From NCBI RefSeq assembly GCF_963921235.1, contig NC_086107.1, positions 93,808,001 to 93,872,000 of the forward strand: a stretch of 64,000 nucleotides of DNA, read 5' to 3'. The notes below the pieces were generated by a model, which did not search any database, was not told the DNA's origin, and was given only the letters and a program-made list of their open reading frames with translations. How positions within the stretch are numbered: position 1 is the stretch's first letter; the number at the start of each line of letters is the position of its first letter. The position numbers and the translations under genes were made by a program. This document shows positions 320 through 63,054 of the stretch, piece after piece. Source of the DNA: Mobula hypostoma (Eukaryota).

Positions 320-420
320 TCCTGATCTTCATCAGGGCCCTGGCCTGAAACGTCAGCTGTTTACTCCCCTCCATAGACTCTGCCTGACTTGTTGAGTTCC
401 TCCATCATTTTGTGTGTGTT
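320..420 (+). mobile_element. Penelope-like element (PLE) terminal repeat (pLTR) remnant
   Basis: ggcctgaaacgtcagctgtttac...ctgcctgacttgttgagttcctcc resembles the pLTR beside the GIY-YIG remnant at 41270-41400. Confidence 0.7.
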
Positions 421-579
421 TTCACCAAGTGAGGAGTTCTTACTTTTCTCTCGGAATCAGAGTCAAGTTTAATATCGCTGATATAAATGTTGTGAAATCC
501 ATTGTTTTGTGGCAGCAATACAGTGCAATACACAAAAAAAGTATTAATTACAATCAGAAATATTTATAAAATATAAATT

Positions 580-583
<4 letters not shown>

Positions 584-618
<35 letters not shown>
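584..618. repeat. (CA)n microsatellite abutting a pLTR remnant (626-710)
   Basis: Pure AC run of about 35 bp. Confidence 0.95.
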
Positions 619-623
<5 letters not shown>

Positions 624-739
624 TTGAGTCCTGAGGAAGGGTCTCAGCCCTTCTTGACTGCTTGTTCATTTCCACGGATACGACCTGACCTGCTGACTTC
701 CTCCAACAATCTTTATTTATTTTGATCTACTGAAGTACA

Positions 740-12217: not shown

Positions 12218-12443
12218 GCACAAAACAGCGGAGGAACTCAGCAGGCCAGGCAGCCTCTGTGGAAGAGAGAACAGTCGATGCTTCGAGCCGCAGTCCTTCA
12301 TCAGGACGCATGAAAGGTCCTGGAGAAGGGTCTTGGCCCTTAATGTTGACTGTACTCTCTTCCATAGGTGCTGCCTGGCCTGCTGAGTTCTTCCACTGTT
12401 TCCTGGATTTCCAGCATCTGCAGATTTTCTCATGTTTGTGATT
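12218..12443. mobile_element. PLE fold-back insertion (inverted pLTR pair)
   Basis: 12-bp TSD aggatactctcc (12206-12217, 12444-12455); opposed hammerhead-like motifs at 12272-12308 and 12317-12352. Confidence 0.85.
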
Positions 12444-17690: not shown

Positions 17691-18519
17691 GGTGCAAGAT
17701 CAGAACAAGGTCGTTTATGAGGCCAAGAGTCCATCTTATCACATGTAAGTCTGATAACAACGGATAGAAGCAATACTTGAGGCTAGTGGGACGAGCTTTC
17801 AAGGCTTTTGTACCGTCTGCCTGATGGAAGAGGGGAGAAGAGAGAACGTTCAGGGTGGGTGCGAGCTTTGATATATTGCTGGCTTTGCTGAGACAGCAAG
17901 AAGTATAGACAGAGTCCATGTGGGTTGGGGGGAGAGGACCATGTCGATAACTCCCGATAGTTTCTTGCAGTCATGCACCGATCAAGCTGTGCCTGATCAC
18001 ACCCAAAGTCATTGTAGGGCTTCGAGGTACAATGAACTGGTTTGCGTCCAGGTGACTACTGTTTGAATGGGAACTGTTGCCGCTCTTTGACTGCACAGAA
18101 AGGTCCCAAGAAAAATAAGGAAGCAAAGCACGTTAATAGGACTGCAAATGTGTTTCTGAGGATTAAGGGAATAGTTCAAGGATGGGAAGGTACAAAGTAA
18201 TTTTTTAAGGGGACCAATGTGATGTGACAAATCAAAACAAGGTGTCATTTTTAAACACAAGAAATGGTTTCAGGTGCTGGAAATCTTGAACAACAAATTC
18301 AAAATGTTGGAGGAACTCAGCAGGCCGGGCAGCATCTGTGGAGAGGGAATAACAGTCAATGTTTTGGATGGAAACCCTTCACAGGATGGAAAAGAAGGTG
18401 GAAGTGTACAAGCTGGCAGGTGAGAGGTGAGACCAGGTGGGGTCAGTGGAGGGGAGACCGTTTTTCCTGATGGACTGGGTTAAGGAAACAGATTAGTTCC
18501 TGATTAGTTGAGCTCGTTC

Positions 18520-28671: not shown

Positions 28672-29265
28672 GTAAACACAAAATAACCTGCAGATGCTGG
28701 GGTCAAAGCAACACTCACAACACGCTGGAAGAACTCAGCAGGTCGGGCAGCATCCGTGGAAAAGATCGGGCCGGAACCCTTCATCAGGACTGAAGGGGGA
28801 AGGGGCAGAGGCCCTATAAAGAAGTTGCGGGGAGGGTGGGAAGGAGAAGGCTGGTAGGTTCCAGGTGAAAAACCAGTAAGGGGAAAGATAAAGGGGTGGG
28901 GGAGGGGAGGCAGGGAGGGATTAGGCAGGAAAGGTGAAGAAAGAATAGGGGAAAACACAATGGGTAGTGGAAGGAGGCAGAACCATGAGGGAGGTGATAG
29001 GCAGCTGGGGGAGGGGGCAGAGTGACATAGGGATAGGGGAAGGGAGGGGGAAGGAATTACCGGAAGTTGGAGAATTCTATGTTCATACCAAGGGGCTGGA
29101 GACTACCTAGACGGTATATGAGGTGTTGCTCCTCCAATCTGAGTTTAGTCTCATCATGGCAGTAGAGGAGGCCATGTATGGACATATCTGAATGGGAGTG
29201 GGAAGCAGAGTTGAAGTGGGTGGCTACTGGGAGATCCTGTCTGTTTTGGCGGATGGAGCGGAGGT
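28672..29265 (-). mobile_element. PLE 3' end (GIY-YIG C-terminus plus pLTR)
   Basis: Minus strand LPVATHFNS...RLEEQHLIYRLGSLQP; gcccatg on both flanks. Confidence 0.85.
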
Positions 29266-29489
29266 GCCCATGATGATGTGCCAGCCTTTTAAACTACTCT
29301 AAACAGCCTCAGACATAGCCCTCCATATTCCTATCATCCATTTAAGAATTTCTTAAATATCCCTAGTGTATCTGCCTGGCAGAACGTGCTGTATCGCTGA
29401 AGAGGAAATGAAAAAGATTAACCCTCTCGCACTGTCCAGCGAGTCAGCGTCGATTACAGATTTGAAGCTGAATGAAAGCTGCAATCACT

Positions 29490-34021: not shown

Positions 34022-35927
34022 TTTAAGTATTTTGCTAATAAACCTTCTTTTGACTTTTGCCAGTTTGGTGACTGAGGAGTAGAAGGAGATGGTGGCCTTT
34101 GAGTACTCTCAAGCTGCTCTTACCAATAACTTCAGCTGGAGGCAGAAGGCGCTGCAATTGCTGGAATCGGGAACAAGATGTTGGAGGATCAGTGGGTCAG
34201 GCAGCATCTGTGGAGTGAAGTGGACAGCCGATGATTCAGTTGGAAACCTCTCCTGTCTAGGTGAAAGGGTCGCAACCTGAAAAGTCAACTATTTCCCTCT
34301 GCAAACGCCACCTGACTTGACTGAGTTTCTTTTCTGCTCTACCTTCAGGCATCTGCCATGACTCAGTCACATCCTTCAGACAGAACGTCGAGAGTTCGAT
34401 CCCCTCTCCGGACTGGAATCCCTAACCTAGACAGGCACTTTAATCCATTCCCACTGGGATAGTGTTGCTAGGTATGCTGGTCTACAGCCTAGAAACTAAA
34501 CCATTGGCAGGAGGTACAGAAACCTGAAGTCCCACAGTACCAGCTTCAGGAACAGCTAGTTCCTTTCAACCATTCGATTCTTAAAGCAACCTAAACAACC
34601 CTAATCACTACATATTAGCAACACTATGAGCACTTTGATCGCTTGGCTCTACGATGGATTTTGGGATTTTTCTAATAGTTTTCTTTCTTTTGTAAAATGC
34701 GGCATAGTTTATGTTCTTCTTGTGAATGTTGTGTCTCTGATGCTACGTGCCTGTAATGCTCCTGCAGGCTTTTCACTACACCTGTGCAGATGACAATAAA
34801 CTCCCGGCCAAGAGCAAAGGAACCCCTAGTACAGATTGAAAGCATCGTTCCACATGGTGTTGTTGGATCTGATGACGTTGATCAGATCTACGCCGAGTGC
34901 CCTTAGCATTAATGGAGCAGTCCGCGAACGGCAGGTTGGGAACTCCTGATCCAGAGGTTTATCGGAAGTCAAGAATGAGGCATCAAAGTTGGTGGTTTCA
35001 GCCGTTTTATTAAATGTCAGAAGATCAAAGAACAAAGAAAAAGAAGTTGTGGTCCTCTCATACTCAGACTAGAGATAATAACTTTCCAGTGAGAACAATA
35101 CCCAGTATAAGGGTCTCGGCCCCAAACGTTGACTGCTTATTCCCCTTCATAGATGTTGCCTGTCCTGCTGAGTTCCTTCAGCATTTTCTGTGTGTTGCTC
35201 TGGATTTCCAACATCTACATTCTGGCTTCTTCCCCCTCCCCTTCCAGTCCTGATGAAGACCTGAAACGTCCATTATTTAACCCCCTCCATAGATGCAGCC
35301 TGACCTATTGAGTTCCTCCAGCCTTTTGTGTGTGTTACTCTGCAGAATCTCGTGTTTATGATGTGCAAGATTCAAGTGACGTGATGCCTGCTGCAGAAAT
35401 CTGAGAAGCTTCTAGAAAATAAAGATTCAGCTATACTACAATTACTAGAAAATTTACTCGACGTATATAGGTAATTACATTAGTCCACTGGTGGTGCAGT
35501 GTCATCCACGTTGGACTTTGAGGCGAGTGGTCCCGGCTTGAATCCAGCCAGCTCCCTGCACACTTTCCATCCGTGCTGGGTTGAGCGCCGAGCTAGCAAC
35601 TCAGCCTCGTAAAAAAAAAGACAAAAATGCCAAAGGAATGGCAAAGTTACTGCCCAATGAGCCACAGGCATGGAAAGGAACAACAACAAAGTGATTATAT
35701 AAGAACGATAAGCAAGTATAGAAAAGTTAAACTACAAGAAAAATACTAGTGAAATAACAATTCTGCACCCTGATCCAATATTGTCCTGGCCGGTGTCATC
35801 GCTCAACCAAAGTCACTGAAGAAAAATTGTCTGATTATTATCCTCCAAGTTTTGAGGGAAGTTACTGTGTGCCCATTGTACCACTATTTTCTTGTGTTAC
35901 ACATTAAAAAGCTACTTCATTCACAAT

Positions 35928-36279
35928 AAACACACACAAAAAATGCTGGTGAAAGCAGCAGGCCAGGCAGCATCTATAGGAAGAGGTACAGACAGTCGAT
36001 CTTTTGGGCCGAGACCCCTCGTCAGGACTAACTGAAAGAAGAGGTAGTAAGAGATTTGAAAGTGGGAGGGGGGTAGGGGGAGATCTATCATTTCGGATTC
36101 CCCTCCCCCCCCACTTTCAAATCTCTTACTATCACTTCTTTCAGTTAGTCCTGACGAAGGGTCTGGGCCCGAAACATCAACTGTACCTCTTCTTATAGAT
36201 GCTGCCTGGCCTGCTGCGTTCACCAGCATTTTCTGTGTGTGTTGCTTGAATTTCCAGCATCTGCAGATTTCCTCGTGTT
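35928..36279. mobile_element. PLE fold-back insertion (near-palindromic, non-coding)
   Basis: 12-bp TSD ttcattcacaat (35916-35927, 36280-36291); arms ~35930-36075 and ~36100-36243 are reverse complements. Confidence 0.9.
36146..36183 (+). ncRNA. Minimal type I hammerhead motif (slightly degenerate)
   Basis: tagtc-CTGACGA-a-gggtctgggccc-GAAA-ca-TC-aactg. Confidence 0.6.
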
Positions 36280-37799: not shown

Positions 37800-38083
37800 C
37801 AACGCACACAAAATGCTGGGGAACTCGGCAGGATCTACGGAGCTGAATAAATACTTGACAATTCGGGACAAAGCCCTTCATCAGGATTCGAATTTCCAGC
37901 ATTTTCAGAATTTCTTGTGTTTAAGAAATTATTTGACCATTTGATCATCAGGATGAGTCCTAATGACAGGTCTTGGCCCAAAACGTTGACTGTTTATTCC
38001 CCTCCATAGAGGCTGCCTGACCTGCTGAGTTTCTCTGGCATTAAGTGTGTTTTGTCCTGGATTTCCAGCATGTCTCCTGTGTT
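37800..38083. mobile_element. Two adjacent PLE pLTR insertions
   Basis: Inverted and direct pLTR pieces; flanking repeats ttaagaa(t/a)ttat and attatttga. Confidence 0.7.
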
Positions 38084-38329: not shown

Positions 38330-40057
38330 ATAGAAACATAGAAACATAGAAAATAGGTGCAGGAGTAGGCCATTCGGCCCTTCGAGCCTGCATCGCCATT
38401 TATTATGATCATGGCTGATCATCCAACTCAGAACCCCGCCCCAGCCTTCCCTCCATACCCCCTGACCCCTGTAGCCACAAGGGCCATATCTAACTCCCTC
38501 TTAAACATAGCCAATGAACTGGCCTCAACTGTTTCCTGTGGCAGAGAATTCCACAGATTCACCACTCTCTGTGTGAAGAAGTTTTTCCTAATCTCGGTCC
38601 TAAAAGGCTTCCCCTCTATCCTCAAACTGTGACCCCTCGTTCTGGACTTCCCCAACATCGGGAACAATCTTCCTGCATCTAGCCTGTCCAATCCCTTTAG
38701 GATCTTATACGTTTCAATCAGATCCCCCCTCAATCTTCTAAATTCCAACGAGTACAAGCCCAGTTCATCCAGTCTTTCTTCATATGAAAGTCCTGCCATC
38801 CCAGGAATCAATCTGGTGAACCTTCTTTGTACTCCCTCTATGGCAAAGATGTCTTTCCTCAGATTAGGGGACCAAAACTGCACACAATACTCCAGGTGTG
38901 GTCTCACCAAGGCCTTGTACAACTGCAGTAGTACCTCCCTGCTCCTGTACTCGAATCCTCTCGCTATAAATGCCAGCATACCATTCGCCTTTTTCACCGC
39001 CTGCTGTACCTGCATGCCCACTTTCAATGACTGGTGTATAATGACACCCAGGTCTCGTTGCACCTCCCCTTTTCCAAATCAGCCACCATTCAGATAATAA
39101 TCTGTTTTCCTATTTTTGCCACCAAAGTGGATAACTTCACATTTATCCACATTAAATTGCATCTGCCATGAGTTTGCCCACTCACCCAACCTATCCAAGT
39201 CACCCTGCATCCTCTTAGCATCCTCCTCACTGCTAACACTGCCACCCAGCTTCGTGTCATCCGCAAACTTGGAGATGCTGCATTTAATTCCCTCATCCAA
39301 GTCATTAATATATATTGTAAACAACTGGGGTCCCAGCACTGAGCCTTGCGGTACCCCACTAGTCACCGCCTGCCATTCTGAAAAGGTCCCGTTTATTCCC
39401 ACTCTTTGCTTCCTGTCTGCTAACCAATTCTCCACCCACACCAATACCTTACCCCCAATACCGTGTGCTTTAAGTTTGCACACTAATCTCCTGTGTGGGA
39501 CCTTGTCAAAAGCCTTTTGAAAATCCAAATATACCACATCCACTGGTTCTCCCCTATCCACTCTACTAGTTACATCCTCAAAAAATTCTATGAGATTCGT
39601 CAGACATGATTTTCCTTTCACAAATCCATACTGACTTTGTCCGATCATTTCACCGCTTTCCAAATGTGCTGTTATCACATCCTTGATAACTGACTCCAGC
39701 AGTTTCCCCACCACCGACGATAGGCTAACCGGTCTATAATTCCCCGGTTTCTCTCTCCCTCCTTTTTTAAAAAGTGGGGTTACATTAGCCACCCTCCAAT
39801 CCTCAGGAACTAGTCCAGAATCTAACGAGTTTTGAAAAATTATCATTAATGCATCCACTATTTCTTGGGCTACTTCCTTAAGCACTCTAGGATGCAGACC
39901 ATCTGGCCCTGGGGATTTATCTGCCTTCAATCCCTTCAATTTACCTAACACCACTTCCCTCAGTGGTTTTACCTAACACCACTTCCCTCATCATTTCACT
40001 CAGTTCCTCCATCTCACTGGACCCTCTGTCCCTTACTATTTCTGGAAGATTATTTAA
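38330..40057 (-). mobile_element. Young 5'-truncated CR1 LINE (RT region, one frameshift near 39075)
   Basis: ORFs 39079-39954 (KSPGPDG, YLDFQKAFDKV, GVPQGSVLGP, FADD) and 38428-39063; (ctatgttt)n tail; agat on both flanks. Confidence 0.95.
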
Positions 40058-40658
40058 AGATTATGTACTGCATTGAACTGCTGCTGCTAAGTTAATAAAT
40101 TTCACGTCACGTGCCGGTGATAATAAAGCTGATTCTGATTCAAACTGTTATTTTGCCTACTTCTATCAATCTGCACCTGGACCATAGCCCTTCATACTCC
40201 TCACATCACTGTATTTATCCAAACTTCTCTTAAATGTTTAAATCAAAACCCCATCCACCGCATCACTGGCACTTGCTCACGTCACCACCCTCTCAAGTGC
40301 GCCTTAATCATTTCACCTTTGACCCTTGACCCATGACCTCTAGTTCTAGCCTCACCAAACCTCAGTGGGAAAAGCTTGCTTACATTCACCCTCTCTCTAC
40401 CCCAGGGCGCTATAGGAATGCGAACAGTTAGTAAGAAGGGGGAGAGAAGTGCGGACTCAAGTTTTGATTTCCTTCATAATTAACAGGGCGCACCACCGAA
40501 GTGATCTGAAACCATCAGCCGTGAAGGACAGTAAATGACAAACATGGCAACTATAATGATAGCAACACACATCAAAGTTGCTGGTGAATGCAGCAGGCCA
40601 GGCAGCATCTGTAGGAAGAGGTGCAGTCGACGTTTCAGGCCGAGACCCTTCGTCAGGA

Positions 40659-40978
40659 GCGTAGGTGTGAGGCAACATTTCACCTGTGAGTCGACTGGGG
40701 TGATATACTGCGTCCGGTGCTCCCGATGTGGCCTTTTATATATTGGCGAGACCCGACACAGACTGGGACATCTACACTCTGTCCGCCAGAGAAAGCAGGA
40801 TCTCCCAGTGGCCACACATTTTAATTCCACGTCCCATTCCCATTCTGACATGTCCATCCACGGCCTCCTCTACTGTAAAGATGAAGCCACACTCAGGTTG
40901 GAGGAACAACACCTTATATTCCGTCTGGGTAGCCTCCAACCTGATGGCATGAACATCGACTTCTCTAACTTCCGCTAA
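40659..40978 (+). pseudogene. Penelope-type GIY-YIG endonuclease C-terminal remnant
   Basis: FTCESTGVIYCVRCSRCGLLYIGET...H...PVATHFN...H...RLEEQHLIFRLGSLQPDGMN. Confidence 0.9.
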
Positions 40979-41268
40979 GGCCCCACCTCCCCCTCGTACC
41001 CCATCTGTTACTCATTTTTACGCACACATTCTTTCTCTCACTCTCCTTTTTCTCCCTCTGTCCCTCTGAATATACCTCTTGCCCATCCTCTGGGTCCCCC
41101 CCCTTGTCTTTCTTCTCGGACCTCCTGTCCAATGATCCTCTCATATCCCTTTTGCCTATCACCTGTCCAGCTCTTGGCTCCATCCCTCCCCCTCCTGTCT
41201 TCTCCTATCATTTTGGATCTCTCCCTCCCCCTCCAACTTTCAAATCCCTTACTCACTCTTCCTTCAGT

Positions 41269-41306
41269 TAGTCCTGACGAAGGGTCTCGGCCTGAAACGT
41301 CGACTG
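41269..41306 (+). ncRNA. Minimal type I hammerhead ribozyme motif (best-preserved copy)
   Basis: Stem I tagtc/gactg; core CTGACGA (41274-41280); stem II agggtctcggcct; GAAA (41294-41297); palindromic ACGT in place of stem III; predicted cut after GUC at 41301. Confidence 0.75.
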
Positions 41307-42123
41307 CACCTCTTCCTAGAGATGCTGCCTGGCCTGCTGCGTTCACCAGCAACTTTGATGTGTGTTGCCTGAATTTCCAGCATCTGCAGAATTCCTGTTG
41401 TTAACTATAATGATACTTAGTTGCTCAAAGGCTAAATATCAGATCATTTTCCCACATCAATCATTTATACAACTTTGAGTCATGAAATTAATCCACACTA
41501 ATTAAAACCTTTACAGAGAAGGTGAAGATCAGGCAGTAAGGCGGGCTGGAATGTGCTTCATGTCTCATCGATCGCTGGAGACAGCAGTGGTATCTTTTCT
41601 TCCCTGAATGGCAACGTGAATACCCCCACTCCCCCCACGGCATGAAGTCTACCATCTTAAAACTGGTAGCTACCTTTCAGTCAAAGAGGACGTAAAATCA
41701 TCCCTAATCCTCTTAACTCTGGTGTTAAATCCCCCTGCTAGGAGGGCCGTTATGAACGACAGGCTGCGCTGTCTGCTGATCTGTTTTCTAACATGTTATA
41801 TCTTATACCACACGGCGGCTGCGAAAGGAGCTTAAGGACGAGCCAATTAAATTCTGCACTGGAAATGTTACACGCTCGAGGAAGTAACGAGTCCTGAACT
41901 TTCAGGAGCAGTTTGACAGTGTGAACTTGCCACCAGCCCTGCAAATGCACCATTATTATGGGAGTTCACAACTGTAATGGCGATATTTCACTGCCGCTGC
42001 GCCAGATGCAGTCCACTGCGTGAAATCGGCGAGACGCTGCGGACTGGAAGCTGCCCCGGCGAGCACCTTCGCTCTATCCAGCATACCAAGCGGGTTCTCG
42101 CCAGTCAGCCACTTTAATTCCAT

Positions 42124-42311
42124 GAACAAAGAAATTCTGCGGATGCTGGAAATTCACAGCAATACCACACGGATGCTGGAGGATCTCAGCAGGTCGGGCA
42201 CTATCTGTGGGAAAGAGTCCTGAAGAAGGGTCTCGGCAACAACGTCGACCGCTTCACTCTTTTCCATAGATGCTTCTTGACCTGCTGAGTTCCTCCAGCA
42301 TTTCGTGTTAT
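42124..42311. mobile_element. PLE fold-back insertion nested in an older PLE GIY-YIG remnant
   Basis: 11-bp TSD tttaattccat (42113-42123, 42312-42322); host reads PVSHFNS...EARCRLEEQH. Confidence 0.85.
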
Positions 42312-44406
42312 TTTAATTCCATTAGCACGCTAACGTGTCTGTCCACAGCCTCCACCAACACCAGGTTGAAGCCAGATGCAGATTAGAGGAACAGCATCGA
42401 AAGATCATAAGACTTAAAAACAGTATTAGTCCATTTGGGCCATCAAGTTTGTTCCGCCATTCGATCATAGCTGATCAACCCCATTCATCTGTCTTCTCCT
42501 CGTAACCTTTGACACACTTACTAATCAAGAAACTACCAACCCTTGCTTAAGTATACCCAATCATCTTTGCCTTAAATATACCCTCAGCCTCAAATTCCAC
42601 AAATTCATCTCCCTCTTTCTAAAGAAATTCCTCAGCATCTCATATTCTGCCTTGATAATCTCCAACCCAATAGCACAAACATCATCTTCTCTAACTTCAG
42701 TAACCGCTCTCCACTGCGCCCTTTTTTCCCTTATCACACTGGTTCCATCACCCCATCTCCTCCCCTCACCCCTCATCTTCCCATCACCCACACACTACTC
42801 CCTCTGGATCCCCTCCCCAACTTTCTCCCTTTCTTCCATGCCCCACCTTCCTCTCCTATCAGATTCCATCTTCTTCAGCCCTTCATCACTTCCACCAATC
42901 ACCTGCCAGCTTCTGTCATCATTCCCACTCTTTCCTCTCCCTCACTTGCCTATCACGCCCTCACCTGGACCCAGCTATCACCTGTAGGTTCTTGGTCCAC
43001 ACCTTCCCCCTCCCAACCTCTTTAGACCAACTATCTCCCCGCTTGCTTTCTGTTTCAGGTGAAGATCAGCTTTTATTTGTAACATTTTCGGTGTGTGGCT
43101 CGTGGCCAAGTGGTTAAGGCGTTGGTCTAGTGATCTGAAGGTCACTAGTTCAAGCCTCAGCTGAGGCAGCATGTTGTGTCCTTGAGCAAGGCACTTAACC
43201 ACACATTGCTGTGCGTCGACACCGGTGTATGTGTCCTAATGCCCTTCCCTTGGACAATATCGGGCTCTTCCCTTGGACAATATTGGTGGCGCTGAGAGGG
43301 GAGACCTGCTTGTTTTCCTGCTGGTTTTCCATACAACCTTGCCCAGGCCTCAGTCAACATTGAAAATTGATGGACAGCCGAAGAAGAGTACTGTGGATTG
43401 TGCTGGGGCAGCCCACAAGGGACGCCATGTTTCTGGCACCAACATAGCACACGCACAACTTACGAACCCTAACTGGTGCATCTTAGGAATGTGGGAGGAA
43501 GCCCATGTGGCTATAGGGAGAATGTACAAATTCCTTACAGACAGTGGCAGATTAGTGGCACTGCAAAGCGTTACGCTAACCACTACACTACCATGTTGTC
43601 CACAGGTCGAGTCCTGAATCATTGACTGTCCATTTCCCTCCACAGATGCCATTTGGCCCACTGAGTTCCTCCTCTTCTTTTATTGTGTGAAATTTTCCGT
43701 CGTAAAAATCTCAACAGAAGGATAAATCTCACAGAGCTGGGTTTTGATGCAGTTCAGATTAATTTATTTATCACACGTACTGTACATTAATACATAGAGG
43801 GAAATCCAGTCACTTCCCTTAACAACCAACATGTACTGAGGGCAGCCTGCATGGACTGCTAGGAACTTCCAGTCAAGATGGTGCCGAGCTGCGATGTCCA
43901 GTGAGTCTGTGGCTCAGACTTAGTTGCTTTCTGGTTTTGGGGTCAGTGCGTGGAGTTGGGGGGTTGGGTTAGGGTTTAGGGATAGGAATGAGGGGAGTTA
44001 AAGGTTAGGGGCAGGAGCCGGTATTTGGGTCAAGATGGTGCCGAGCTGTGATGTCCACCATGGTCATGGCTCTGAGTTAGTTGTTTTTTTGTGGGTTAGG
44101 GATGGTGTAAGGGATATTGTAGGGAGTTACGTGACAGGGATGAGGTGTGTTAGGAGTTAGAGGCAGTATTATGAAGAGAATCCAGGTCACAGTGCTCCGC
44201 AGTGGAAGGCCAGTGATCCCTGTGGAAGCCCATGGGGGCAGGAGGCACAAAGCCGGAAATGTCGACAATTCCTTCCTTACTCGCCCCCAAACCCCCCCCC
44301 CCCACAGCGGCTGCTTGACCCTCTGAATTCCTCCAGCAGATTGTTTTTTGCTTCAGATTCCAGAAAAAGAGATCAAAGTTCAAAGTAAATTTATTATCGA
44401 AGTACA

Positions 44407-45277
44407 TGTAAAGTCCTGGTTAAGACTTCTACTGCGATGCTGTAGGTATTTCATTTCATTTAGCAGTTTTCTGCAAAAGCAGTTTGTCCTGCTGGTGGAA
44501 TGCTTTAGTTTTGGCTAAAGACGAGAAGCTCTGCTGTTCAACTTAGGGATGTTGTGCCAGCCGGTCAGGTTGGTGGGATATGGAGAAAGTTCTAGAGAGA
44601 GCCGGGCGGAGAGAATTTTGTGATGGACAGTAGTCTGGTTTGGCGGGAGCTGCAGAGTGGGGCACAAGGGAAGATGCTGCAGAATACCGTTGTAAGGAGA
44701 GACCCCATTGCAAAGAGAGACCCCATTGCAAGGTGTGCTTTGTGCAGATGAATAGCTTGAAGGAGGAAGGACAATACTCCTGAGCCAGTTTGCTCAAAGT
44801 GGTCTTCGAGGGGAGTTTGAAAATGTGGCGGGTGTTTTCACGCAGACTGTGGGTCCAGCGCGTGAGTAAGAGATACACCCCCGAATACCCAGCTTTGGAA
44901 GAGACGAGCTCCAATGTTCATGTGCGCATTGGACTGGTTTAACTGTAATGGGCCCTTTTATTTTTTTTCTTTCTTTTCTTTCTCTTAGTAACTGTTTGAT
45001 CAAGCTGAAATTAGCAAATACACTTTCTATATAATTTTATGCGCTGTACGATCTGTTATTTCTTGTCAACCAATAACTGTGCATGTGCAGTATTTGCACA
45101 GCATTCACTCAAATCGAGGTTTCTTTAATCGGAACATCACAACTTTCCTGTTTGGTTGAGCCCCAGATCATACCAACCCTTGACGTCTATTGTCTATGAA
45201 AGGTGGCCTTCTCACCGTTGAGTCACCTGGCTGTCAGCAGAGCTGAATTTGTATATGTGCCAGGTGAGAGGGTTACG
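44407..45277. mobile_element. Possible solo LTR
   Basis: Starts tgtaa and ends ttacg; interrupts a LINE tail (aagtaca|...taaatg); no ORF. Confidence 0.45.
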
Positions 45278-46194
45278 GACGTAAATGCTAACTTATTATA
45301 TACAACTAAATTTTTTACTTTAGCCAGAGGGTGGTGAGTCTGGGGAATTCATTGCCACAAATGACTGTGGAGACCAAGTTGTTGAGTGTACTTGGAGGTA
45401 GACAGGTTATTGATTAGTCAGGGTATGAAAGGTTACGGGGAGGAGGAAGGAGAATGGGGTTAAGGGGGATAATAAATCAGCCATGAGTGAATGACAGAGT
45501 GGACACAAAGGGTCAAATGGCGTAAGTCTGGTCCCATGTATTATGCTTGTAAATAGGAGAAAGACAGAAGACAGGTAGGAATGGTGAGCGCTGAGGCGAA
45601 CTTGAAAACCTGAGGGTTAAGAGCCGAGGGTACGGCCAACAACGGCGAGGCAAACAACTGGACAACAAATGAGAACCAGAATGGCTGTTCTGTGTGCTTG
45701 TGCACGTTTGCCAATGATGCCATTAGCAGAAGCAATTTGAGGTGGCAGATTAAGAACCTCACAGAAGCAGTGTCTAAGTGCAATTTGTCTCAAGGCAAAT
45801 AGGAACTATATAAGAAATAAATGTGGTGACAAGGCTTACTGTTTTTCAGCTGGCAGCCACAATCAAGCACGCCTCTTGACTTGCTAATCAGACAGACTAG
45901 CCAGTTTCATCACTCTCTCTTCATTAATCTAATGATGTGGCTCAGGTTCAGACCAGCCTAGTCTCTGCTTTCCGCTCACTGTATTATGGAACCTTTATGG
46001 GAGACTAATGGAGAGGGTTCAAAGGAGGTTCACAGGAATGAAAAGGTTAATGTACGAGGAGCGTTTGATTGCTCTAGGCCTGTAATCACTGGAGTTTAGA
46101 AGAATGAGGGGGGTGGGGGAGGGATCGCACTGAAAACTATCAAATATTGAAAGACCAATTTCGAGTAGATGTGGAGAGGATGCTTCCTATAGTG

Positions 46195-46261
46195 CAGGGA
46201 TTCCCAACCTTTTTTATGCCATGGATGGAGGGGTCCATGGACCCCAGGTTGGGAACCCCTC
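46195..46261. mobile_element. hAT-type mini-MITE inside a CR1 remnant (host ~46000-47110)
   Basis: TIRs cagggattcccaacct / aggttgggaacccct. Confidence 0.75.
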
Positions 46262-47734
46262 CTCTCATGGGAGAGTCTAAGAACAGGGACACAGCCTCAG
46301 AACACAAGGACATCCCTTCAGATCAGAGATGGGAAGGAATTTCTCAGCCAGAAGACGGTGAATCTGTGGAAGTTATTGCCGCAGACGGCTGTGGATGCCA
46401 TGCCATTCGGTATACTTGTGTAAAGTGGAGTTTAATGGGTTCTTGATTAGTGGGGGAAGCAAAGGTTACAGGGGGAAAGCAGGAGGATAGGGTTAAAAGG
46501 AATAGCAGTTTTGTATTTGCACAGTTTGTCAGTCCTTGTGTGTAGCTCTTCATTGATTCTATTGCATTTCTTTGTTCTACTACGAATTCCTCCAAGGAAA
46601 TACTTTATACTTTATACTTTATTGTCGCCAAACAATTGATACTAGAACGTACAATCATCACAGCGATATTTGATTCTGCGCTTTCCGCTCCCTGGAGTAA
46701 AAAATGAATCTCAGAGTAGTACAAGGTGACATATACTGTATGTACTTTAATAATAAACTTACATTGAACTTTGAACTTAAATCAGCCATGGTGAAATGGT
46801 GGGGCAGTATCAATTTCACCAACCAGCCTCCCAGCTCTTTTACTTCATCCCTCCCCCTTCATTTCACCTATCACCTTGTGCTTCTCTCTCCTCCCCTTCC
46901 TTTTAAATCTTCTCCTCAGTTTTTTAACTCCAGTCTTCCAAAGGGTCTCAGCCCGAAACGTCGACTGTTGACTCTTTCCCATGGATGCTGCCTGGCCTGC
47001 TGAGTTCCTCCAGCATTTTGTGTGTGTTGCTTGGATTTCCAGCATCTGCAGATTTTCTCTTGTTTGTCAATGGACCCAATGGCCTATTTCTGCTCCTATC
47101 TTGTGGTCTAATATCATTTTGGACCAAATCCAGCCAAAGTCCATTTCCAGGATCTTAAGATCTGCAAGGTATAGGCAATGTAAAAATAGAAACACAAGAA
47201 ACACAATAAAATCAATGAAAGACTGCACCCAACAGGAGGAACAACAATGTGCAAAAGGCAACAAACTGTGCAAATACAAAAAGTAAAAACAGAAGAAAGA
47301 ATAATAATAAATAAATAAGCAATAAATAGAGAACATGAGATGAAGAGCCCTTGAACGCGAGTCCATAAGTTGTGGGAATAGTTCAGCAATGGAGCCAGTG
47401 AAGTTGATTGAAGTTATCCACTCCGGTTTAAGAGCCTGATGGCTGAGGGGTAATAACTATTCCTGAACCTGTTTGTATGGATCCTAAGGCTCCTGAACCT
47501 TCTTCCTGATGGCAGCAGCAGTAACAATGGATACAGCCACGTCCACCATGGGTAAAGCCCTCCCCACCATTGATCATACCTGCAGAGTGCTGTGGCAGGA
47601 AAGGGCATTGGTATTTCCATACCGGGCCATAATTCAATCAGTCAATACACTCTCCAACACACATCTACAGATTTGCCAAAGTTTTAGATGACATGCCAAA
47701 TCTTCAGACTTCCACAACCAACTAGTCTGCTGGC

Positions 47735-49660
47735 GAATGTATAGTCTCTGAAACATAAAATTGAAGACCTCAGAACAAGATTGCTGTACCAGCAGGACAT
47801 CAGGGACTGCTGTGTACTTTGCTTCACAGAAACATGGCTATCCTGCACCATCTCGGACACAACACTGCAGCCCAATGGCTTCACCATTCTCTGCAAAGAT
47901 AGAACAGCCCGGTCTGTTAAAAGTAGAGGAGGTGGAGTATGCTTTATGGCCAACTTATCGTGGTGCACAAATGTGGTGGTCCTGTCTCAGTCCTGCTCAC
48001 CTGACCTGGAGCATCTAAAAGCCAGATCTCATCCATTTCATCTGCTGAGGGAGATTTACGCCATGATTCTTGTAGCTATGTATATTCCACCTCAGTCCAG
48101 TGTCAGGCAGGCTCTGGAGGAACTGAGCAACATAATCAGCAGGAATGAAATAGCCTGCCCTTTCATTTTGGGAGCTATCAACCAGGACAGCTTGAAAAAG
48201 TCTCTGAACAACTACCACCTACATTTCACTTGTGGAAACAGAGGAGCCAACACACTTGAGCACCATCAAAAATACCTACCATACCATCCTATGCCCACAC
48301 TTTGGGAAGTCCAATCACCTGGCTGTAATACTCCCAGCGCATAGGCAGAGACTAAAGACCACAGCACCAGTGGTGAGGACCAAGAAGGTATGGTCAAAGG
48401 AGGCAGAAGAGCACTTACAAGACTGCTTTGAGTCGGTGAACTGGACAATATTCAGGAACTCATCTCTGAGTCTGAATGAATACACCAGAGTTATCACCAA
48501 CTTCACAACAATCTGTGTGAATGAGTGCGTGCCTTTGGGAACATTCCATGCGCATCCCAAGTCAAAAGCCATAGATGAACCAGGAGAGTCTGCTGAGGGC
48601 TAGAACTGTGGCATTCAAGACCGGTAATCCAGAACTATACAAGAAGTCCAGTTACGACCGAAGGAAGGCTAGCTTAAGAGTGAAAAAACACAGGATTGAA
48701 AAAAGCGGCAGAGAGTTGCAAACGCAGCCGGCTCCATCATGGGCACTCGGCTCCCCAGCATTCAGGACACCATCAAAAGGCGATGCACCAAAAAGGTGGC
48801 ATCTATCACTAAGGACCCAGCATCACCCAGGGCATGCCCTCTTTTCATTGCTACCATCAAGGGTGGCATCCATCACTAAGGACCCAGCATCACCCAGGGC
48901 ATGCCCTCTTTTCATTGCTACCATCAAGGGTGGCATCCGTCACTAAGGACCCAGCATCACCCAGGGCATGCCCTCTTTTCATTGCTACCATCAAGGGTGG
49001 CATCCGTCGCTAAGGACCCAGCATCACCCAGGGCATGCCCTCTTTTCATTGCTACCATCAAGGGTGGCATCCGTCGCTAAGGACCCAGCATCACCCAGGG
49101 CATGCCCTCTTTTCATTGCTACCATCAAGGGTGGCATCCGTCGCTAAGGACCCAGCATCACCCAGGGCATGCCCTCTTTTCATTGCTACCATCAAGGGTG
49201 GCATCCGTCACTAAGGACCCAGCATCACCCAGGGCATGCCCTCTTTTCATTGCTACCATCAAGGGTGGCATCCATCACTAAGGACCCAGCATCACCTAGG
49301 GCATGCCCTCTTTTCATTGCTACCATCAAGGGTGGCATCCGTCACTAAGGACCCAGCATCACCCAGGGCATGCCCTCTTTTCATTGCTACCATCAAAATT
49401 AGTAAAAGAGCCTGAAGGCCCCCACTCAACGTTTTAGGAACAGCTTCTTCCCCTCCGCCATCATATTTCTGAATGGACAATGAACCCATGAACACTTCCT
49501 CAGTACTTATGTCCGTCCCTTGTTTCACTACTTGTTTGATTTTTGATAATATATATATTATTGTAATTCATAGTTTTTATTACTATGTATCGCAATGCAC
49601 TGCTGCCACAAAACAAAAAATTTCACGACATATCCTGGTGATATTAAACCTGATTCTGAA
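47735..49660 (+). mobile_element. Rex1/Babar LINE with endonuclease remnant, RT core missing, 3' end retained
   Basis: DCCVLCFTETWL, SRGGGVC, YIPP, PHFGKSNHL, LQDCFESVNW; jumps near 48700 to C-terminal sequence; aaacctgattctga tail. Confidence 0.85.
48795..49396 (+). repeat. Minisatellite, 9 x 67 bp, derived from LINE coding sequence
   Basis: Units start at 48795, 48862, 48929, 48996, 49063, 49130, 49197, 49264, 49331. Confidence 0.97.
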
Positions 49661-49685
49661 TCACATTAGCTTAAGAAGCCTTTCA

Positions 49686-50760: not shown

Positions 50761-50865
50761 GTCACTAATAAACCAGCAACTCACTGTCTGCTGATTCGTC
50801 ATCTCGAACTTAGAACAGTACAGCGCAGGAACAGGCCTTTGATCCCACAATGTTATGCTGAACCA

Positions 50866-51436: not shown

Positions 51437-51619
51437 TAATTTAGCTAATGACACCTAATTAAAACTAATCCTTTCTGTCGGCACATGGTCGCGATCCCTC
51501 CGCTCGGCACATTCATGTGCCTATGTAAGAGCCCCGTAAACACCTATTTCGTATCTGTTTCCACCAGCACCTCTGGCAGCACGCTGCAGGTTCTCACCAC
51601 TCATCTCCTTTAAACTTCC

Positions 51620-52180
51620 TAAACACGAGAGGCTCGGCAGATGCTGGAAGTCCACAGCAACACACGCAAGATGCTGGAGGAACTCAAGAATGTCAGGAAA
51701 CGTCAAAGGAGGGGAATAAATTGCTGACGTTTCGGGCCGAGGCCTTTCATCGGGGCTGGAAAAGAGAGGGGAAGACGCCAGAATGAAAATGTGGGGGAGG
51801 GGAAGGAATACAAGCTGGCAGGTGATAGGTGGGTGTGGGGATAAAGTAAGAAGCTGAGAGGGGATTGGTGAGGGGCTGAAGAAGCAATATGATAGGAGAA
51901 GAGAGTGGACGGTGGGAGATAGAAGAGGAGGAGGGACACCAGAGGGAGGTGATAGGCAGTTGAGGAGAAGAGAAGAGGTAAGAGTTGAGTCAGAATGGGG
52001 AATGGAAAAAAGAAGACGGGGGGGGGAAATGATCAGGGGTTAGACAAACCGATGTTCATGCCATCAGGTTGAAGGCTACCCAGATGGAATATGACGTGCT
52101 GCTCCTCCAGCCTAAAAGTGGCCTCATCCTAGTGGTAGAGGAGGCCTTGGAATAACAGATTGGAATGGGAATGGGACTTG
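51620..52180 (-). mobile_element. PLE 3' end inserted in a CR1 tail
   Basis: Minus strand LEEQHVIFHLGSLQPDGMN plus pLTR. Confidence 0.8.
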
Positions 52181-53379: not shown

Positions 53380-53620
53380 GACACAAGAGATTCTGCAGGT
53401 GCTGGAATCTGGAGCAACGAACAAAATGCTGGATGAACCCAGCAGGTCAGGCAGCATCTGTGGAGGGAAATGATGATCGATGTTTTGGTTTGAGAACCTT
53501 CACCTAGACTGAAAGATAGAATATTGGTAAAGTTCAGATGAAGGGTCTCAACCCGAAATGTTGACTGTCCATTCCACTTCAACGACGCTGGCTGAGCTCC
53601 TCCAGCACTTATGTTTGTTC
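53380..53620. mobile_element. Older PLE inverted pLTR pair
   Basis: Inverted pLTR at 53380-53510 and direct gatgaagggtctcaacccgaaatgttgactg. Confidence 0.75.
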
Positions 53621-58002: not shown

Positions 58003-59220
58003 ATGCAGCAGCTGCTTAATATCTACGTCCTGTACCTAATAAAGTGGCCACTGTATGTATGTTTGTGGACTCCTGCAGTCGTAGCCCATCTACTTCAACG
58101 ATCGATGTGTTGTGCGTGCAGGCATGTTCTTCTGCACACCACTGTGGTAACCGTCAACACAAGGAAATCTGCAGATGCTGGAAATTCAAGCAACACACAT
58201 AAAAAATGCTGCTGGAATGCAGCAGGACAGGCAGCATCTCTAGGAAGAGGTACAGTCGATGTTTTGGGCCGAGACCCTTTGTCAGGACTAACTGAAAGAA
58301 GAGATAGTAGGAGATGTGGAAGTGGGAGGGGGAGGAGGAGATCCGAAATGATAGGAGAAGACAGGAGGGGGAGGGATGGAGCCAAGAGCTGGAAAGTTGA
58401 TTGGCAAAAGGGATACGAGGCTGGAGAAGGGAGAAGATCATGGGACGGGAGGCCAAGGGAGAAAGAAAGGGGGAGGGGAGCCCAGAGGATGGGCAAGGAG
58501 TTATAGTGAGAGGGGCAGAGGGAGAAAAAATAGAGGGGGGGGAATTAAATAAATAGATAGATATTTAAATAAATAAATAAGGGATAGGGTACGAAGGGGA
58601 GGTGGGGCATAAACAAAAGTTAGAGAAGTCAATGTTCATGTCATCAGGTTGCAGGCTAACCAGACGGAATTAGGTTGGAGGCTACCCAGATGGAACTCTC
58701 TTACTATCTCTTCTTTCAGTTAGTCCTGACGAAGGGTCTCAGCCCAAAACGTCGACTGTACCTCTTCCTATAGATGCTGCCTGGCCTGCTGCATTCACCA
58801 GCACTTTTTATAACTGTTGTAACCGTGGTTTTTTGAGTTGCTGTCACCTCCTTGTCAACTTGAACCAATCTGGCCATTCTCCTCTGACCTCTCTCATTAA
58901 AAAGTGCCCACAGAACTGCTGCTCTCTGGATGTTTTTTTGTTTTTCAAACCATTCTCTGTAAACTCTAGATACTGTTGCGTGTGAAAATCCCAGGAGATC
59001 AACAGTTTCTGAAATAATCAAACCACCCCATCTGGCACCAACAATCATTCCACTGTCAAAGTCACTTAGATCACATTTCTTGCCTATTCTGATGTTTGCT
59101 CTGAACAACTGAACCTCTGCATGCTTTTAAGCATTGAGCTTCTGCCACATGATTGGCTGATCAGATATTTGCAATAACAAGCAGGTGTACAGGTGTCACT
59201 AATATAGTAGCCACTGAGTG
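58003..59220 (-). mobile_element. Tc1 deletion derivative split by a PLE insertion
   Basis: ORF 58716-59108 GKKCDLSDFDSGMIVGARWGG...LLGFSHATVSRVYREW; TIR plus TA at 59220. Confidence 0.85.
58155..58812 (-). mobile_element. PLE insertion with inverted partial pLTR
   Basis: 14-bp TSD actgt(g/t)gtaaccgt (58141-58154, 58813-58826); opposed hammerhead-like motifs at 58253-58289 and 58721-58757. Confidence 0.9.
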
Positions 59221-62879: not shown

Positions 62880-63054
62880 ACACACACACACACACACACC
62901 TGGAGGAACTCGGCAGGTCAGGCAGTATCTATAAAGGAAAATAAGTTGTTGACAATTCGGGCCAAGACCCTTCATCAGGGCAATGAAAGGTTTCTGCCTC
63001 AGTCGTCAACTGTTCATTTCCCACTATACATGCTGCCGCCTGACCTGCTGAGTT

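What the first reader, a model, noticed from the sequence alone, without database searches (positions are those of the whole stretch)
41269..41306. Minimal hammerhead ribozyme motif in the Penelope terminal repeat, about 20 copies in 64 kb
Seen: stem I (tagtc/gactg), core CUGACGA, stem II, GAAA, a palindromic ACGU replacing stem III, and a GUC site. Intact-to-decayed copies lie near 330, 630, 8160, 11670, 12280, 12320, 18360, 20700, 28770, 35110, 35250, 36000, 36150, 37870, 37960, 40630, 42220, 46940, 51730, 53540, 58260, 58725, 62960. In most copies stem II is GGG..CCC with one extra A after the core. Established: PLEs carry minimal type I hammerheads with a palindromic stem III that can cleave as dimers (Cervera and De la Pena 2014). 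Inference: this genome holds a very large reservoir of such motifs, and intact ones could cut host pre-mRNA or pair in trans.
Basis: partly seen in the sequence, partly recalled or inferred. Interest (0 to 1): 0.75.

Follow-up and report, generated by a model that had tools for sequence, protein, structure and literature searches.

The report
Penelope retroelement minimal hammerhead motif
The flagged 38 bases are a complete copy of the small self-cutting RNA motif (minimal hammerhead) that Penelope-like jumping genes are already known to carry near their ends; this genome holds tens of thousands of them, but whether they cut was not tested.

Summary
Confirmed, but of a known kind. Window 41269-41306 (+) has every hammerhead core base, a 5-bp helix I, a 4-bp helix II after a bulged A, and a palindromic ACGU in place of a helix III hairpin.

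It lies 290 nt after the stop of a GIY-YIG endonuclease frame and 65-104 nt before the 3' end of a 5'-truncated Penelope-like element.

Only one copy passes a full descriptor.

Genome-wide, the core occurs 61,487 times and the core with both helix I strands 45,183 times. The reversed control gives 0.

Between subfamilies the conserved block ends exactly at the motif's edges. This matches Cervera and De la Pena 2014.

Not supportive: Rfam hammerhead models do not match, no covariation was seen, and the active dimer fold is predicted unfavourable. DNA traces of in-vivo cutting are weak.

Cleavage, and any effect on host RNA, remain untested. This scan noted the same kind before on other shark-like DNA.

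The parts
41269..41306 (+). Complete minimal hammerhead motif. Helix I 41269-73 with 41302-06. Core C3-A9 41274-80. Bulged A 41281. Helix II 41282-85 with 41290-93, loop 41286-89. G12-A14 41294-96. Palindromic A15.1-C-G-U16.1 41297-41300. C17 41301. Predicted cut 41301|41302.
   Evidence: 58.5 bits, E 7.6e-13
40655..40978 (+). C-terminal part of the element's ORF (GIY-YIG endonuclease region) with its stop codon. The copy is 5'-truncated here.
   Evidence: Pfam GIY-YIG is only E 0.091 on this fragment. The same region in the near-complete copy L038 scores 23.0 bits against a cut-off of 22.6.
40979..41268 (+). 3' untranslated stretch between the ORF stop and the hammerhead. It diverges between subfamilies.
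   Evidence: identity 0.33 over 41240-41269 in 22 older copies
41307..41405 (+). Tail beyond the cut site up to the 3' end of the copy (long-tail form). Contains a strongly conserved block at 41319-41339.
   Evidence: 3' ends of 38 copies fall about 65-67 or about 101-104 nt after the cut site.
40561..40664 (-). Inverted 5'-truncated partner copy, head-to-head with the copy above. Its core is at 40629-40656 (-). The helix I 5' strand was lost at the junction.
   Evidence: 51 bits
35988..36188 (.). Head-to-head pair of decayed copies: 35988-36033 (-) and 36143-36188 (+, GAAACATC). As one strand it would fold into a long hairpin.
58248..58293 (-). Decayed copy (core CTGACAA, G12 to A)
   Evidence: 61.6 bits
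58718..58763 (+). Decayed copy (G12 to A)
   Evidence: 63.9 bits
11662..11707 (+). Decayed older-subfamily copy
12267..12357 (.). Head-to-head pair of decayed copies: 12267-12312 (-) and 12312-12357 (+)
37952..37997 (+). Decayed copy. A weaker one lies at 37849-37892 (-).
53469..53572 (.). Pair of decayed copies: 53469-53514 (-) and 53527-53572 (+)
51716..51761 (-). Decayed copy, downstream of a GIY-YIG remnant at 52039-52176 (-)
46928..46972 (+). Decayed copy (core lost, 3' half intact)
18348..18392 (-). Decayed copy
28760..28795 (-). Decayed, partly deleted copy downstream of a GIY-YIG remnant at 29060-29278 (-)
35100..35279 (+). Two weak copies: 35100-35140, and 35242-35279 (core boxes intact, helix II collapsed)
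326..665 (+). Two weak copies: 326-364 and 623-665
62941..62986 (-). Weak copy
42212..42255 (+). Weak copy at a head-to-head junction
34250..34296 (+).
   Evidence: 24.7 bits, E 0.0005

Best explanation
The motif is the minimal hammerhead (min-HHR) that canonical endonuclease-bearing Penelope-like elements carry in their terminal region. Here the element looks Neptune-type.

Shown:
- The element's single ORF (RT, then a CX4CxxC linker, then GIY-YIG) ends 290 nt upstream of the motif.
- Inserted copies run 65-104 nt past the predicted cut site.
- Most copies are 5'-truncated, and many sit head-to-head with an inverted partner.
- Between subfamilies the conserved block has exactly the motif's borders.
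- The genome holds about 45,000-61,000 intact copies.

Inferred from the family's published behaviour, not shown here:
- In a transcript of the element, the RNA cuts itself after C17 (41301|41302). That requires two copies to pair through the palindromic ACGU, with helix I also formed in trans, or the element's own protein to assist folding.
- That cut would trim long or multimeric element RNA.
- After insertion the copies are under no constraint and decay, mostly at the CpGs of the motif. About 23 of the 24 copies in this window are therefore dead relics.
For: Motif:
- All 13 conserved core positions plus helices I and II are present.
- 3 matches against 0.01 expected. 27 descriptor hits against 0 in 20 shuffles.

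Element:
- A GIY-YIG frame lies just upstream in the window and in 20-odd loci.
- The near-complete copy L039:1-1926(-) plus L038:9338-10000(-) is open for 862 aa. RVT_1 scores E 2.5e-5 and GIY-YIG 23.0 bits against a 22.6 cut-off.
- It carries the DKG motif and the CKRNKCYTC linker, which Craig 2021 names as PLE and Neptune/Nematis marks.
- 5' truncation, inverted adjacent copies and heterogeneous tails are seen, as that paper describes.

Abundance:
- 61,487 core matches and 45,183 with helix I; reversed control 0.

Conservation:
- In contigs from 4 coded organisms, alignments break at 41270 (99, 67, 10 and 24 loose ends) and at 41306 (106, 53, 15 and 17).
- 22 older copies, chosen by downstream marks only, are 0.33 identical upstream, 0.71 in the motif and 0.43 in the spacer.

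Literature:
- The Anolis Poseidon element's hammerhead cuts only with its protein, and core mutants abolish the cut.
Against: - No Rfam hammerhead family matches at gathering score, at E<=10 over the whole window, or at E<=10 on 101 bases.
- The 10.1-11.1 pair is G.U in this copy and in 79 of the 100 listed genome copies. The 2014 paper stresses G-C there.
- No covariation: 85.3% of cells are paired against 84.9% in shuffles (198 of 500 reach it), and there are 3 double-sided changes (99 of 500).
- The monomer's minimum-energy fold pairs core G5-G8 with C15.2-C17 (-12.2 kcal/mol, z -0.36).
- The designed double hammerhead scores -12.9, against -24.4 for two monomers and -32.7 for the best dimer.
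- All inserted copies extend past the cut site, so their templates were uncut there.
- Copy starts exactly at the cut site show at most a two-fold excess: 16 against 10 and 6 AT-flanked junctions. Tail-to-cut-site joints number 4 in the whole genome.
- The doubly changed stem III (ACGU to AUAU) occurs 598 times against about 414 expected.
- Craig 2021 notes that PLE clades without hammerheads proliferate well.
Confidence: 0.85

Rival explanations
1. The conserved block is kept by the element for a reason other than cutting. It could be a binding or folding site for its RT-endonuclease, or part of the region where reverse transcription starts. The hammerhead likeness would then be a passenger or a relic.
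For: - The block just downstream (41319-41339) is conserved at least as well: 0.86 identity, though inflated because it was part of the query.
- Templates of all copies were uncut at this site.
- In the Anolis element, core mutants do not affect insertion in vitro, and no RNA-seq reads start or end at the site.
- Craig 2021 raises the idea that hammerheads may simply parasitise PLEs.
- The predicted stable fold hides the core.
Against: - The conserved island ends exactly at the two helix I strands.
- All core positions are kept across subfamilies, apart from CpG decay.
- Published PLE hammerheads do cut, weakly or with protein, and core mutations abolish that.
Confidence: 0.12
2. The copies are a separate non-autonomous family: animal non-LTR retrozymes, short tandem repeats with hammerheads that make circular RNAs. 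On this reading they are not fragments of the autonomous element.
For: - Many copies are very short, only the last 100-250 nt.
- A 2026 preprint relates vertebrate retrozymes to PLE pLTRs.
Against: - No tandem array containing the motif appears among the window's 15 tandem-repeat rows.
- Same-strand pairs are rare: 1 within 3.5 kb among 100 listed places.
- Copies of all lengths are collinear with the ORF and 3' UTR of the autonomous element.
Confidence: 0.03
3. Intact copies act on host RNA, cutting pre-mRNAs that contain them or pairing in trans.
For: There are about 45,000 complete motifs. The palindromic ACGU could in principle pair between molecules.
Against: - Nothing here bears on host transcripts.
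- A dimer is required.
- The usual neighbour is an inverted copy, which on one transcript gives a hairpin and not a double hammerhead.
- The active fold is unfavourable.
- Activity in vitro is low in the literature.
Confidence: 0.04
4. Chance resemblance in a repeat.
For: None beyond the lack of an Rfam match.
Against: (controls 0), and the position in a PLE.
Confidence: 0.01

Closest known systems
Minimal hammerheads (min-HHR) of metazoan Penelope-like elements (Cervera and De la Pena 2014, PMC4209133; parts 1-2 of 4 read)
   Same: - Type I order.
- No helix III hairpin.
- Palindromic 15.2-16.2.
[quoted passage not shown]
- Short helix I (5 bp).
- Sits in the terminal region of a PLE.
- Mostly single motifs in truncated copies, plus pairs on opposite strands (here 645 bp apart: 40629- and 41274+).
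- Massive copy number.
   Different: - Helix II is only 4 bp with two wobble pairs, against 7-8 bp reported for Schistosoma.
- The 10.1-11.1 pair is G.U in the dominant young subfamily.
- One nearly uniform family, not many covarying families.
- 45,183-61,487 copies, against about 4,000 (coelacanth) and about 9,000 (Xenopus) quoted there. The counting rules differ.
Hammerhead of the Poseidon element PAc of Anolis carolinensis (Mob DNA 2024, PMC11167929; passages read)
   Same: - The motif has only helices I and II.
- Genomic copies end in a tail downstream of the motif, consistent with internal initiation of reverse transcription.
- Extension of both target strands would explain the head-to-head copies.
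   Different: - In PAc the ORF starts inside the motif.
- Here the only ATG after the motif (41321) opens 16 codons and then stops.
- The tail is not followed within 30 nt by the 5' part of the ORF (0 matches).
- I could not place the motif relative to the 5' end of a full-length unit.
Canonical type I hammerheads of animal satellites and non-LTR retrozymes (newt, Schistosoma; Rfam hammerhead families)
   Same: Same catalytic core. Weak helix III and a proposed dimeric active form.
   Different: - No helix III loop at all.
- No tandem arrays.
- Not matched by any Rfam model.

Membership tests
Hammerhead ribozyme (general definition) | Core C3 U4 G5 A6 N7 G8 A9 ... G12 A13 A14, A15.1-U16.1, and H17 not G | tested here: met
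   41274-80 CTGACGA, 41294-97 GAAA, T41300, C41301
Hammerhead ribozyme (general definition) | Helices I and II flanking the core | tested here: met
   Helix I is 5 bp (U.G, A-U, G-C, U-A, C-G). Helix II is 4 bp (G.U, G-C, G-C, U.G) with loop CUCG. Pairing holds in 85.3% of cells over 25 copies.
Hammerhead ribozyme (general definition) | Helix III closed within one molecule | tested here: not met
   A15.1-C-G-U16.1 are contiguous with no loop. Helix III can form only between two molecules.
Hammerhead ribozyme (general definition) | Match to a curated Rfam hammerhead covariance model | tested here: not met
   No hammerhead family at gathering score, at E<=10 on 64 kb, or at E<=10 on 101 bases
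Hammerhead ribozyme (general definition) | Site-specific self-cleavage | not testable with these tools
   No RNA run on record. The runs laid are contigs, so they show no molecule ends.
min-HHR of metazoan PLEs (Cervera and De la Pena 2014) | [quoted passage not shown] | tested here: met
   A41281. Criterion.
min-HHR of metazoan PLEs (Cervera and De la Pena 2014) | Conserved G10.1-C11.1 pair | tested here: inconclusive
   This copy has G.U. Among 100 listed genome copies, position 11.1 is T in 79, C in 19, G in 1 and A in 1. It is G-C in 18 of 24 distinct rows of A1.
min-HHR of metazoan PLEs (Cervera and De la Pena 2014) | Palindromic 15.2-16.2 | tested here: met
   C41298 and G41299
min-HHR of metazoan PLEs (Cervera and De la Pena 2014) | Consensus families with covariation and compensatory changes | tested here: not met
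   One family only. No covariation above shuffles. The AUAU double change occurs 598 times against about 414 expected.
min-HHR of metazoan PLEs (Cervera and De la Pena 2014) | Lies in the terminal non-coding region of a PLE | tested here: met
   290 nt after the GIY-YIG ORF stop and 65-104 nt before the copy's 3' end
Endonuclease-bearing Penelope-like element (Neptune-type) | Single ORF with RT followed by a C-terminal GIY-YIG endonuclease | tested here: met
   The L039/L038 copy has an 862-aa open frame. RVT_1 scores E 2.5e-5 (24.5 bits, below the 29.6 cut-off) and GIY-YIG 23.0 bits against 22.6.
Endonuclease-bearing Penelope-like element (Neptune-type) | DKG motif in the RT; CX2-5CxxC linker before the endonuclease (Neptune/Nematis) | tested here: met
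   ADKGG and CKRNKCYTC. Criteria taken from passages of Craig 2021. No phylogeny was made.
Endonuclease-bearing Penelope-like element (Neptune-type) | Heavy 5' truncation, adjacent inverted 5'-truncated copy, tail extension | tested here: met
   There are 8 head-to-head pairs within 1.3 kb among 100 listed places.
Endonuclease-bearing Penelope-like element (Neptune-type) | Partial tandem giving direct pseudo-LTRs | tested here: inconclusive
   No direct pair in the DNA I held. One direct pair at 1.67 kb among 100 places. No tail-to-5'-ORF adjacency.
Animal non-LTR retrozymes | Tandem arrays of short units each holding a hammerhead | tested here: not met
   None of the 15 tandem-repeat rows in the window holds the motif.

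The most novel reading that the evidence does not exclude
The young subfamily (about 45,000 complete motifs, mostly with G10.1.U11.1) still cuts itself in vivo, and the genome keeps a DNA record of it. In a list that excludes intact copies, starts of copies and junctions peak at G+1, the first base after the cut site: about 16-24 of 100 rows, against 0-6 at neighbouring positions. AT-flanked simple starts number 16 at +1, 10 at +2 and 6 at +4. If this survives a full-genome tally that removes microhomology junctions, it would be genome-scale in-vivo evidence that PLE minimal hammerheads cleave. The Anolis study looked for such evidence in RNA-seq and did not find it.
Probability: 0.15. Interest if true: 0.6.

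Novelty: new member of a known kind. Interest (0 to 1): 0.25.

Why it matters
It holds 45,183-61,487, against about 4,000 and 9,000 in the 2014 paper and a maximum of 14,255 'active retrozymes' in the 2026 preprint. The definitions differ between these counts.

Biologically it adds a case, not a principle. Its practical value is as material. A very young, nearly uniform family with thousands of near-full-length copies (2,487 candidates for the 5' ORF part at 96-97% identity) suits an open question: whether PLE hammerheads cut in vivo, and what they do for the element.

Tried and rejected
- Rfam: 0 matches at gathering score, and no hammerhead at E<=10. The sub-threshold miRNA-like hits at 36025-36151 are the hairpin made by two head-to-head copies.
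Loci were not cut out, so the 5' end of a full-length unit could not be read.
- RNA evidence: no RNA holder listed. The four runs laid are contigs of uncertain kind, so nothing on expression or RNA ends follows from them.
- Idea that the conserved ATG at 41321 starts the element's ORF, as in the Anolis element: rejected. The frame stops after 16 codons in the window and in the long-tail copies.
- Idea that the tail runs straight into the 5' ORF part: 0 matches within 30 nt.
- Covariation in helices I and II: none above shuffles.
- Compensation in the intermolecular stem III: CG to TG 9,127; CG to CA 10,672; TA 598. The control rate is 105 of about 5,020 (2.1%), which predicts about 414. That is 1.4-fold, so not convincing. 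The denominator is estimated from 55 T rows among the 100 listed.
- Thermodynamic support for the double hammerhead: none.
- Fossil 5' ends at the cut site. The VD/DH counts (804 against 458) are polluted by mutated canonical copies. The peak at +1 is largely explained by microhomology:
  - the reverse complement of helix I (GACT);
  - GAC repeats;
  - CGTC with the reverse complement of core GACG (7 of 100 rows read TTCGTC/TTCATC then GACTG or AACTG);
  - the palindromes ACGT and GTCGAC.
- Joints 41375 to 41302 and 41301 to 41368/9 in single contigs: the first type occurs only 4 times in the genome.
- Fold of the tail 41302-41405: z -1.10, not notable.
- The tallies were made by hand on the listed rows and may be off by a row or two.

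Full report
**1. The observation**

Window 41269-41306 (+) reads TAGTC CTGACGA A GGGTCTCGGCCT GAAA CGTC GACTG. In hammerhead numbering this breaks down as follows:

- Helix I 5' strand, 41269-73.
- C3-A9, 41274-80 (N7 = C).
- One extra A, 41281.
- Helix II G.U/G-C/G-C/U.G with loop CUCG, 41282-93.
- G12 A13 A14, 41294-96.
- A15.1 C15.2 G16.2 U16.1, 41297-41300. These four are contiguous and palindromic, so no helix III hairpin can form.
- C17, 41301.
- Helix I 3' strand, 41302-06.

The motif is well above chance. The strict pattern CTGANGA-N6-30-GAAACGTC has 3 matches in the window against 0.01 expected, and 0 of 100 shuffles reach 3. My own full descriptor asks for helix I of at least 4 bp, the core, an optional bulge, helix II of at least 3 bp, GAAA, a palindrome of 0, 2 or 4 nt, U and H. 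It gives 27 hits in the 254,840 bases I held and 0 in each of 20 shuffles. 25 of those 27 hits lie in loci that were fetched by the core pattern. The unbiased 164 kb holds 2: window 41274 and L038 9041.

**2. Copies in the window**

- blastn of 41150-41450 against the window gives 22 HSPs.
- A covariance model was built from 25 family copies, 13 of them from this window, so those match by construction. With filters off it gives 24 matches at E<=0.05 and 26 at E<=1.
Places 8160 and 20700 show only the downstream flank with a truncated or decayed motif.
- Four family copies keep both core boxes: 35250+, 36151+, 40629- and 41274+. Copy 35250 has lost helix II, 36151 reads GAAACATC, and 40629 lost its helix I 5' strand at a junction. 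Only 41274 passes the full descriptor.
- The decayed copies differ mainly by C-to-T and G-to-A changes at the motif's CpGs.

**3. What carries the motif**

On the + strand, 40655-40975 encodes the C-terminal part of a GIY-YIG endonuclease domain, followed by a stop at 40976-78. The Pfam match on this fragment is only E 0.091. After the stop come 290 nt of non-coding sequence, then the motif, then a tail.

The same protein segment lies at the same distance upstream of the motif in many loci fetched from the genome. Remnants also lie in the window at 29060-29278(-), 52039-52176(-), 20181-20434(+), 8445-8537(-), 58616-58669(-) and 42633-42698(+).

A near-complete copy lies just beyond the window: L039:1-1926(-) continued by L038:9338-10000(-). 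Its features:

- It is open for 862 codons.
- RVT_1 scores E 2.5e-5 (24.5 bits, below the 29.6 cut-off). GIY-YIG scores 23.0 bits against a 22.6 cut-off.
- It has an ADKGG motif and the linker CKRNKCYTC before the endonuclease.

Passages of Craig et al. 2021 name the DKG motif as a PLE mark and the CX2-5CxxC linker as a mark of the Neptune and Nematis clades. I made no tree, so 'Neptune-type' is a reading of motifs only. The other reverse transcriptases in the window are LINE-like and unrelated to the motif.

**4. Architecture of the copies**

All copies are collinear with the 3' part of that element and stop at about the same 3' end, while their 5' ends are scattered.

The 3' ends of 38 copies fall into two groups. 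One ends about 65-67 nt after the cut site (...GTGTGTTGC) and the other about 101-104 nt after it. Every copy therefore extends past the predicted cut site.

Many copies abut an inverted 5'-truncated partner, head to head, with junctions at many different positions. In the window these are 40561-40664(-) with 40667-41405(+), 35988-36033(-) with 36143-36188(+), and 12267-12312(-) with 12312-12357(+).

Among the first 100 genome places of the core pattern:

- 8 pairs within 1.3 kb, all in (-,+) order.
- No same-strand pair within 1.3 kb.
- One same-strand pair at 1.67 kb (my tally of the listing).

This is the published picture of PLE insertions: heavy 5' truncation, an adjacent inverted truncated copy, and a tail. 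It also fits the finding that the Anolis Poseidon protein cuts and extends both target strands and starts reverse transcription inside the template.

**5. Genome scale**

The window lies in a 3.48-Gb assembly.

- The 28-base core pattern with three free positions occurs 30,675 + 30,812 = 61,487 times. The reversed control gives 0.
- With both helix I strands (35 places) it occurs 22,530 + 22,653 = 45,183 times. The control is again 0.
- Of the 100 listed, position 11.1 is T in 79, C in 19, G in 1 and A in 1.
- The 5' part of the ORF has 2,487 first-look candidates. The 40 that were scored are 96-100% identical, so the family is young.

**6. Is the motif itself conserved?**

Contigs of four runs from four coded organisms were laid on 40980-41420. 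Whether these runs are RNA is only a guess.

- Loose ends pile up before 41270 (99, 67, 10 and 24) and behind 41306 (106, 53, 15 and 17). Diverged subfamilies thus share a block with exactly the motif's borders.
- Inside the block, the listed variants are 41293 T>C (11.1), 41294 G>A, 41298 C>T and 41299 G>A. Ten rows of that table were not shown, so absence elsewhere is not proven.

In my own sample, 22 older copies were chosen only by the downstream flank and two downstream diagnostic letters. Their identity to the window copy is:

| Segment | Identity |
|---|---|
| Upstream, 41240-69 | 0.33 |
| Motif | 0.71 (0.74 without CpG columns) |
| Spacer, 41307-18 | 0.43 |
| Downstream, 41319-39 | 0.86 |

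The last value is inflated because that segment was part of the query.

The motif is therefore a conserved island. It is not the only one, since the tail block is conserved at least as well.

**7. Tests that did not support a working ribozyme**

- No Rfam hammerhead family matches at any threshold tried. That these models expect a helix III hairpin is my inference.
- Covariation over 25 copies is absent. With a single lineage decaying neutrally, this says little either way.
- The monomer's minimum-energy fold keeps helices I and II but pairs core G5-G8 with C15.2-C17 (-12.2 kcal/mol, z -0.36 against 300 shuffles).
- The designed double hammerhead scores -12.9 kcal/mol, against -24.4 for two monomers and -32.7 for the best dimer. 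Tertiary contacts and proteins are not modelled.

**8. A search for DNA traces of cutting**

If element RNA were cut at 41301|41302 and then copied, copies or junctions should start at G+1.

- In a list that excludes intact copies (non-A at -6; 4,957 matches, first 100 rows tallied by hand), +1 is the commonest start. I count about 16-24 rows at +1, against 0-6 at +2 to +6, about 9 at +7/+8, and 3-8 at -2 to -4.
- Most of these junctions can be explained by microhomology, which a self-complementary motif necessarily offers. The sources are the reverse complement of helix I, GAC repeats, CGTC with the reverse complement of core GACG, and the palindromes ACGT and GTCGAC.
- Simple starts with an AT-only hexamer upstream number 56 at +1. 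Forty of these begin with AA and look like decayed intact copies, 27 of them reading AATATT. That leaves 16 at +1, against 10 of 14 at +2 and 6 of 9 at +4.
- Tail-to-+1 joints occur 4 times in the genome.

Overall this is at most a two-fold excess, which I do not count as evidence of cutting.

The doubly changed stem III (AUAU) occurs 598 times. About 414 are expected from the single changes (9,127 and 10,672) and a control rate of 2.1%. This is also unconvincing.

**9. Comparison with what is known**

Cervera and De la Pena 2014 (parts 1-2 of 4 read) define this motif. It is a minimal type I hammerhead without helix III in the terminal repeats of PLEs. [quoted passage not shown] It is found mostly as single motifs in truncated elements and as pairs on opposite strands 100-700 bp apart. 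It occurs in fishes (Xena, Poseidon, Neptune), coelacanth (about 4,000) and Xenopus (about 9,000). Self-cleavage in vitro is low and seen only in dimeric or extended forms.

The Mob DNA 2024 paper (passages) shows protein-assisted, core-dependent cleavage in an Anolis element. It finds no need for cleavage in insertion in vitro and no RNA-seq ends at the site.

Craig 2021 (passages) states that the function of the motif in endonuclease-bearing PLEs is still unclear.

A 2026 preprint (abstract and the first part of Results) relates vertebrate retrozymes to PLE pLTRs and sampled one cartilaginous fish.

A paper by Lunse and co-workers on dimeric PLE hammerheads is recalled only. It was not in the library, and I saw only a fragment of its title among citing papers.

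Two library searches for Penelope elements in cartilaginous fishes gave no paper on their hammerheads. That is a thin basis for saying it is not in print.

Notes of this scan on other shark-like genomes describe the same kind. Other notes call this genome a cartilaginous fish, which I did not test.

**10. Verdict**

The thing is a new member of a known kind. Whether it cuts, and whether the copies matter to the host, is open. In this window all copies but one are decayed relics.

Noticed in passing
window 36025-36151: Two head-to-head element copies form a near-perfect 125-nt inverted repeat. It draws sub-threshold matches to a dozen miRNA precursor families (best 45.3 bits against a gathering score of 96). 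If transcribed it would be a long hairpin, a plausible small-RNA source.
   Followed up: partly
L010:1-1603 and L030:1426-3028: Two loci 1.4 Mb apart share the same inverted junction, joining element position about 335 (inverted) to about 2165 (direct). Either the composite itself was copied or the region was duplicated.
   Followed up: no
genome-wide (listing): A recurrent junction joins an inverted copy ending in ...CCCTTCGTC directly to GACTG... (7 of 100 rows). It uses the 4-nt complementarity between core GACG and CGUC at the cut site. That is the same pairing that hides the core in the predicted monomer fold.
   Followed up: partly
genome-wide (listing): 27 of 56 AT-flanked rows read AATATT before GACTG. 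This is the motif's ACGTC changed to ATATT: still palindromic at 15.2-16.2 and still with H at position 17. It could be a small propagating variant or triple CpG-type decay.
   Followed up: partly
window 41319-41376: The tail holds the best-conserved block of the terminal region (AGATGCTGCCTGGCCTGCTG...). It has a 16-codon ATG frame (MLPGLLRSPATLMCVA, stop). Short-tail copies end next to the loop of a predicted hairpin (fold z -1.10). It is a candidate site for protein binding or for the start of reverse transcription.
   Followed up: partly
window 48795-49396: Tandem repeat of a 67-nt unit, 9.0 copies, 98% matches. Its origin was not examined.
   Followed up: no
window 59441-62181 (+), 38428-39972 (-), 26466-28148 (+), 50245-50868 (-): LINE-type retrotransposon remnants. 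One has an AP-endonuclease plus RT; the others are RT frames of 297 and 560 aa and an RT end with an ALKBH8_N-like match. They are unrelated to the hammerhead family.
   Followed up: partly
L039:1790-1870 (-): The near-complete element copy begins with a 35-nt direct duplication (ATTCAAAACCCGGACTCCAGCAACGACCATGGACA twice). Other copies match only from the second unit on.
   Followed up: no
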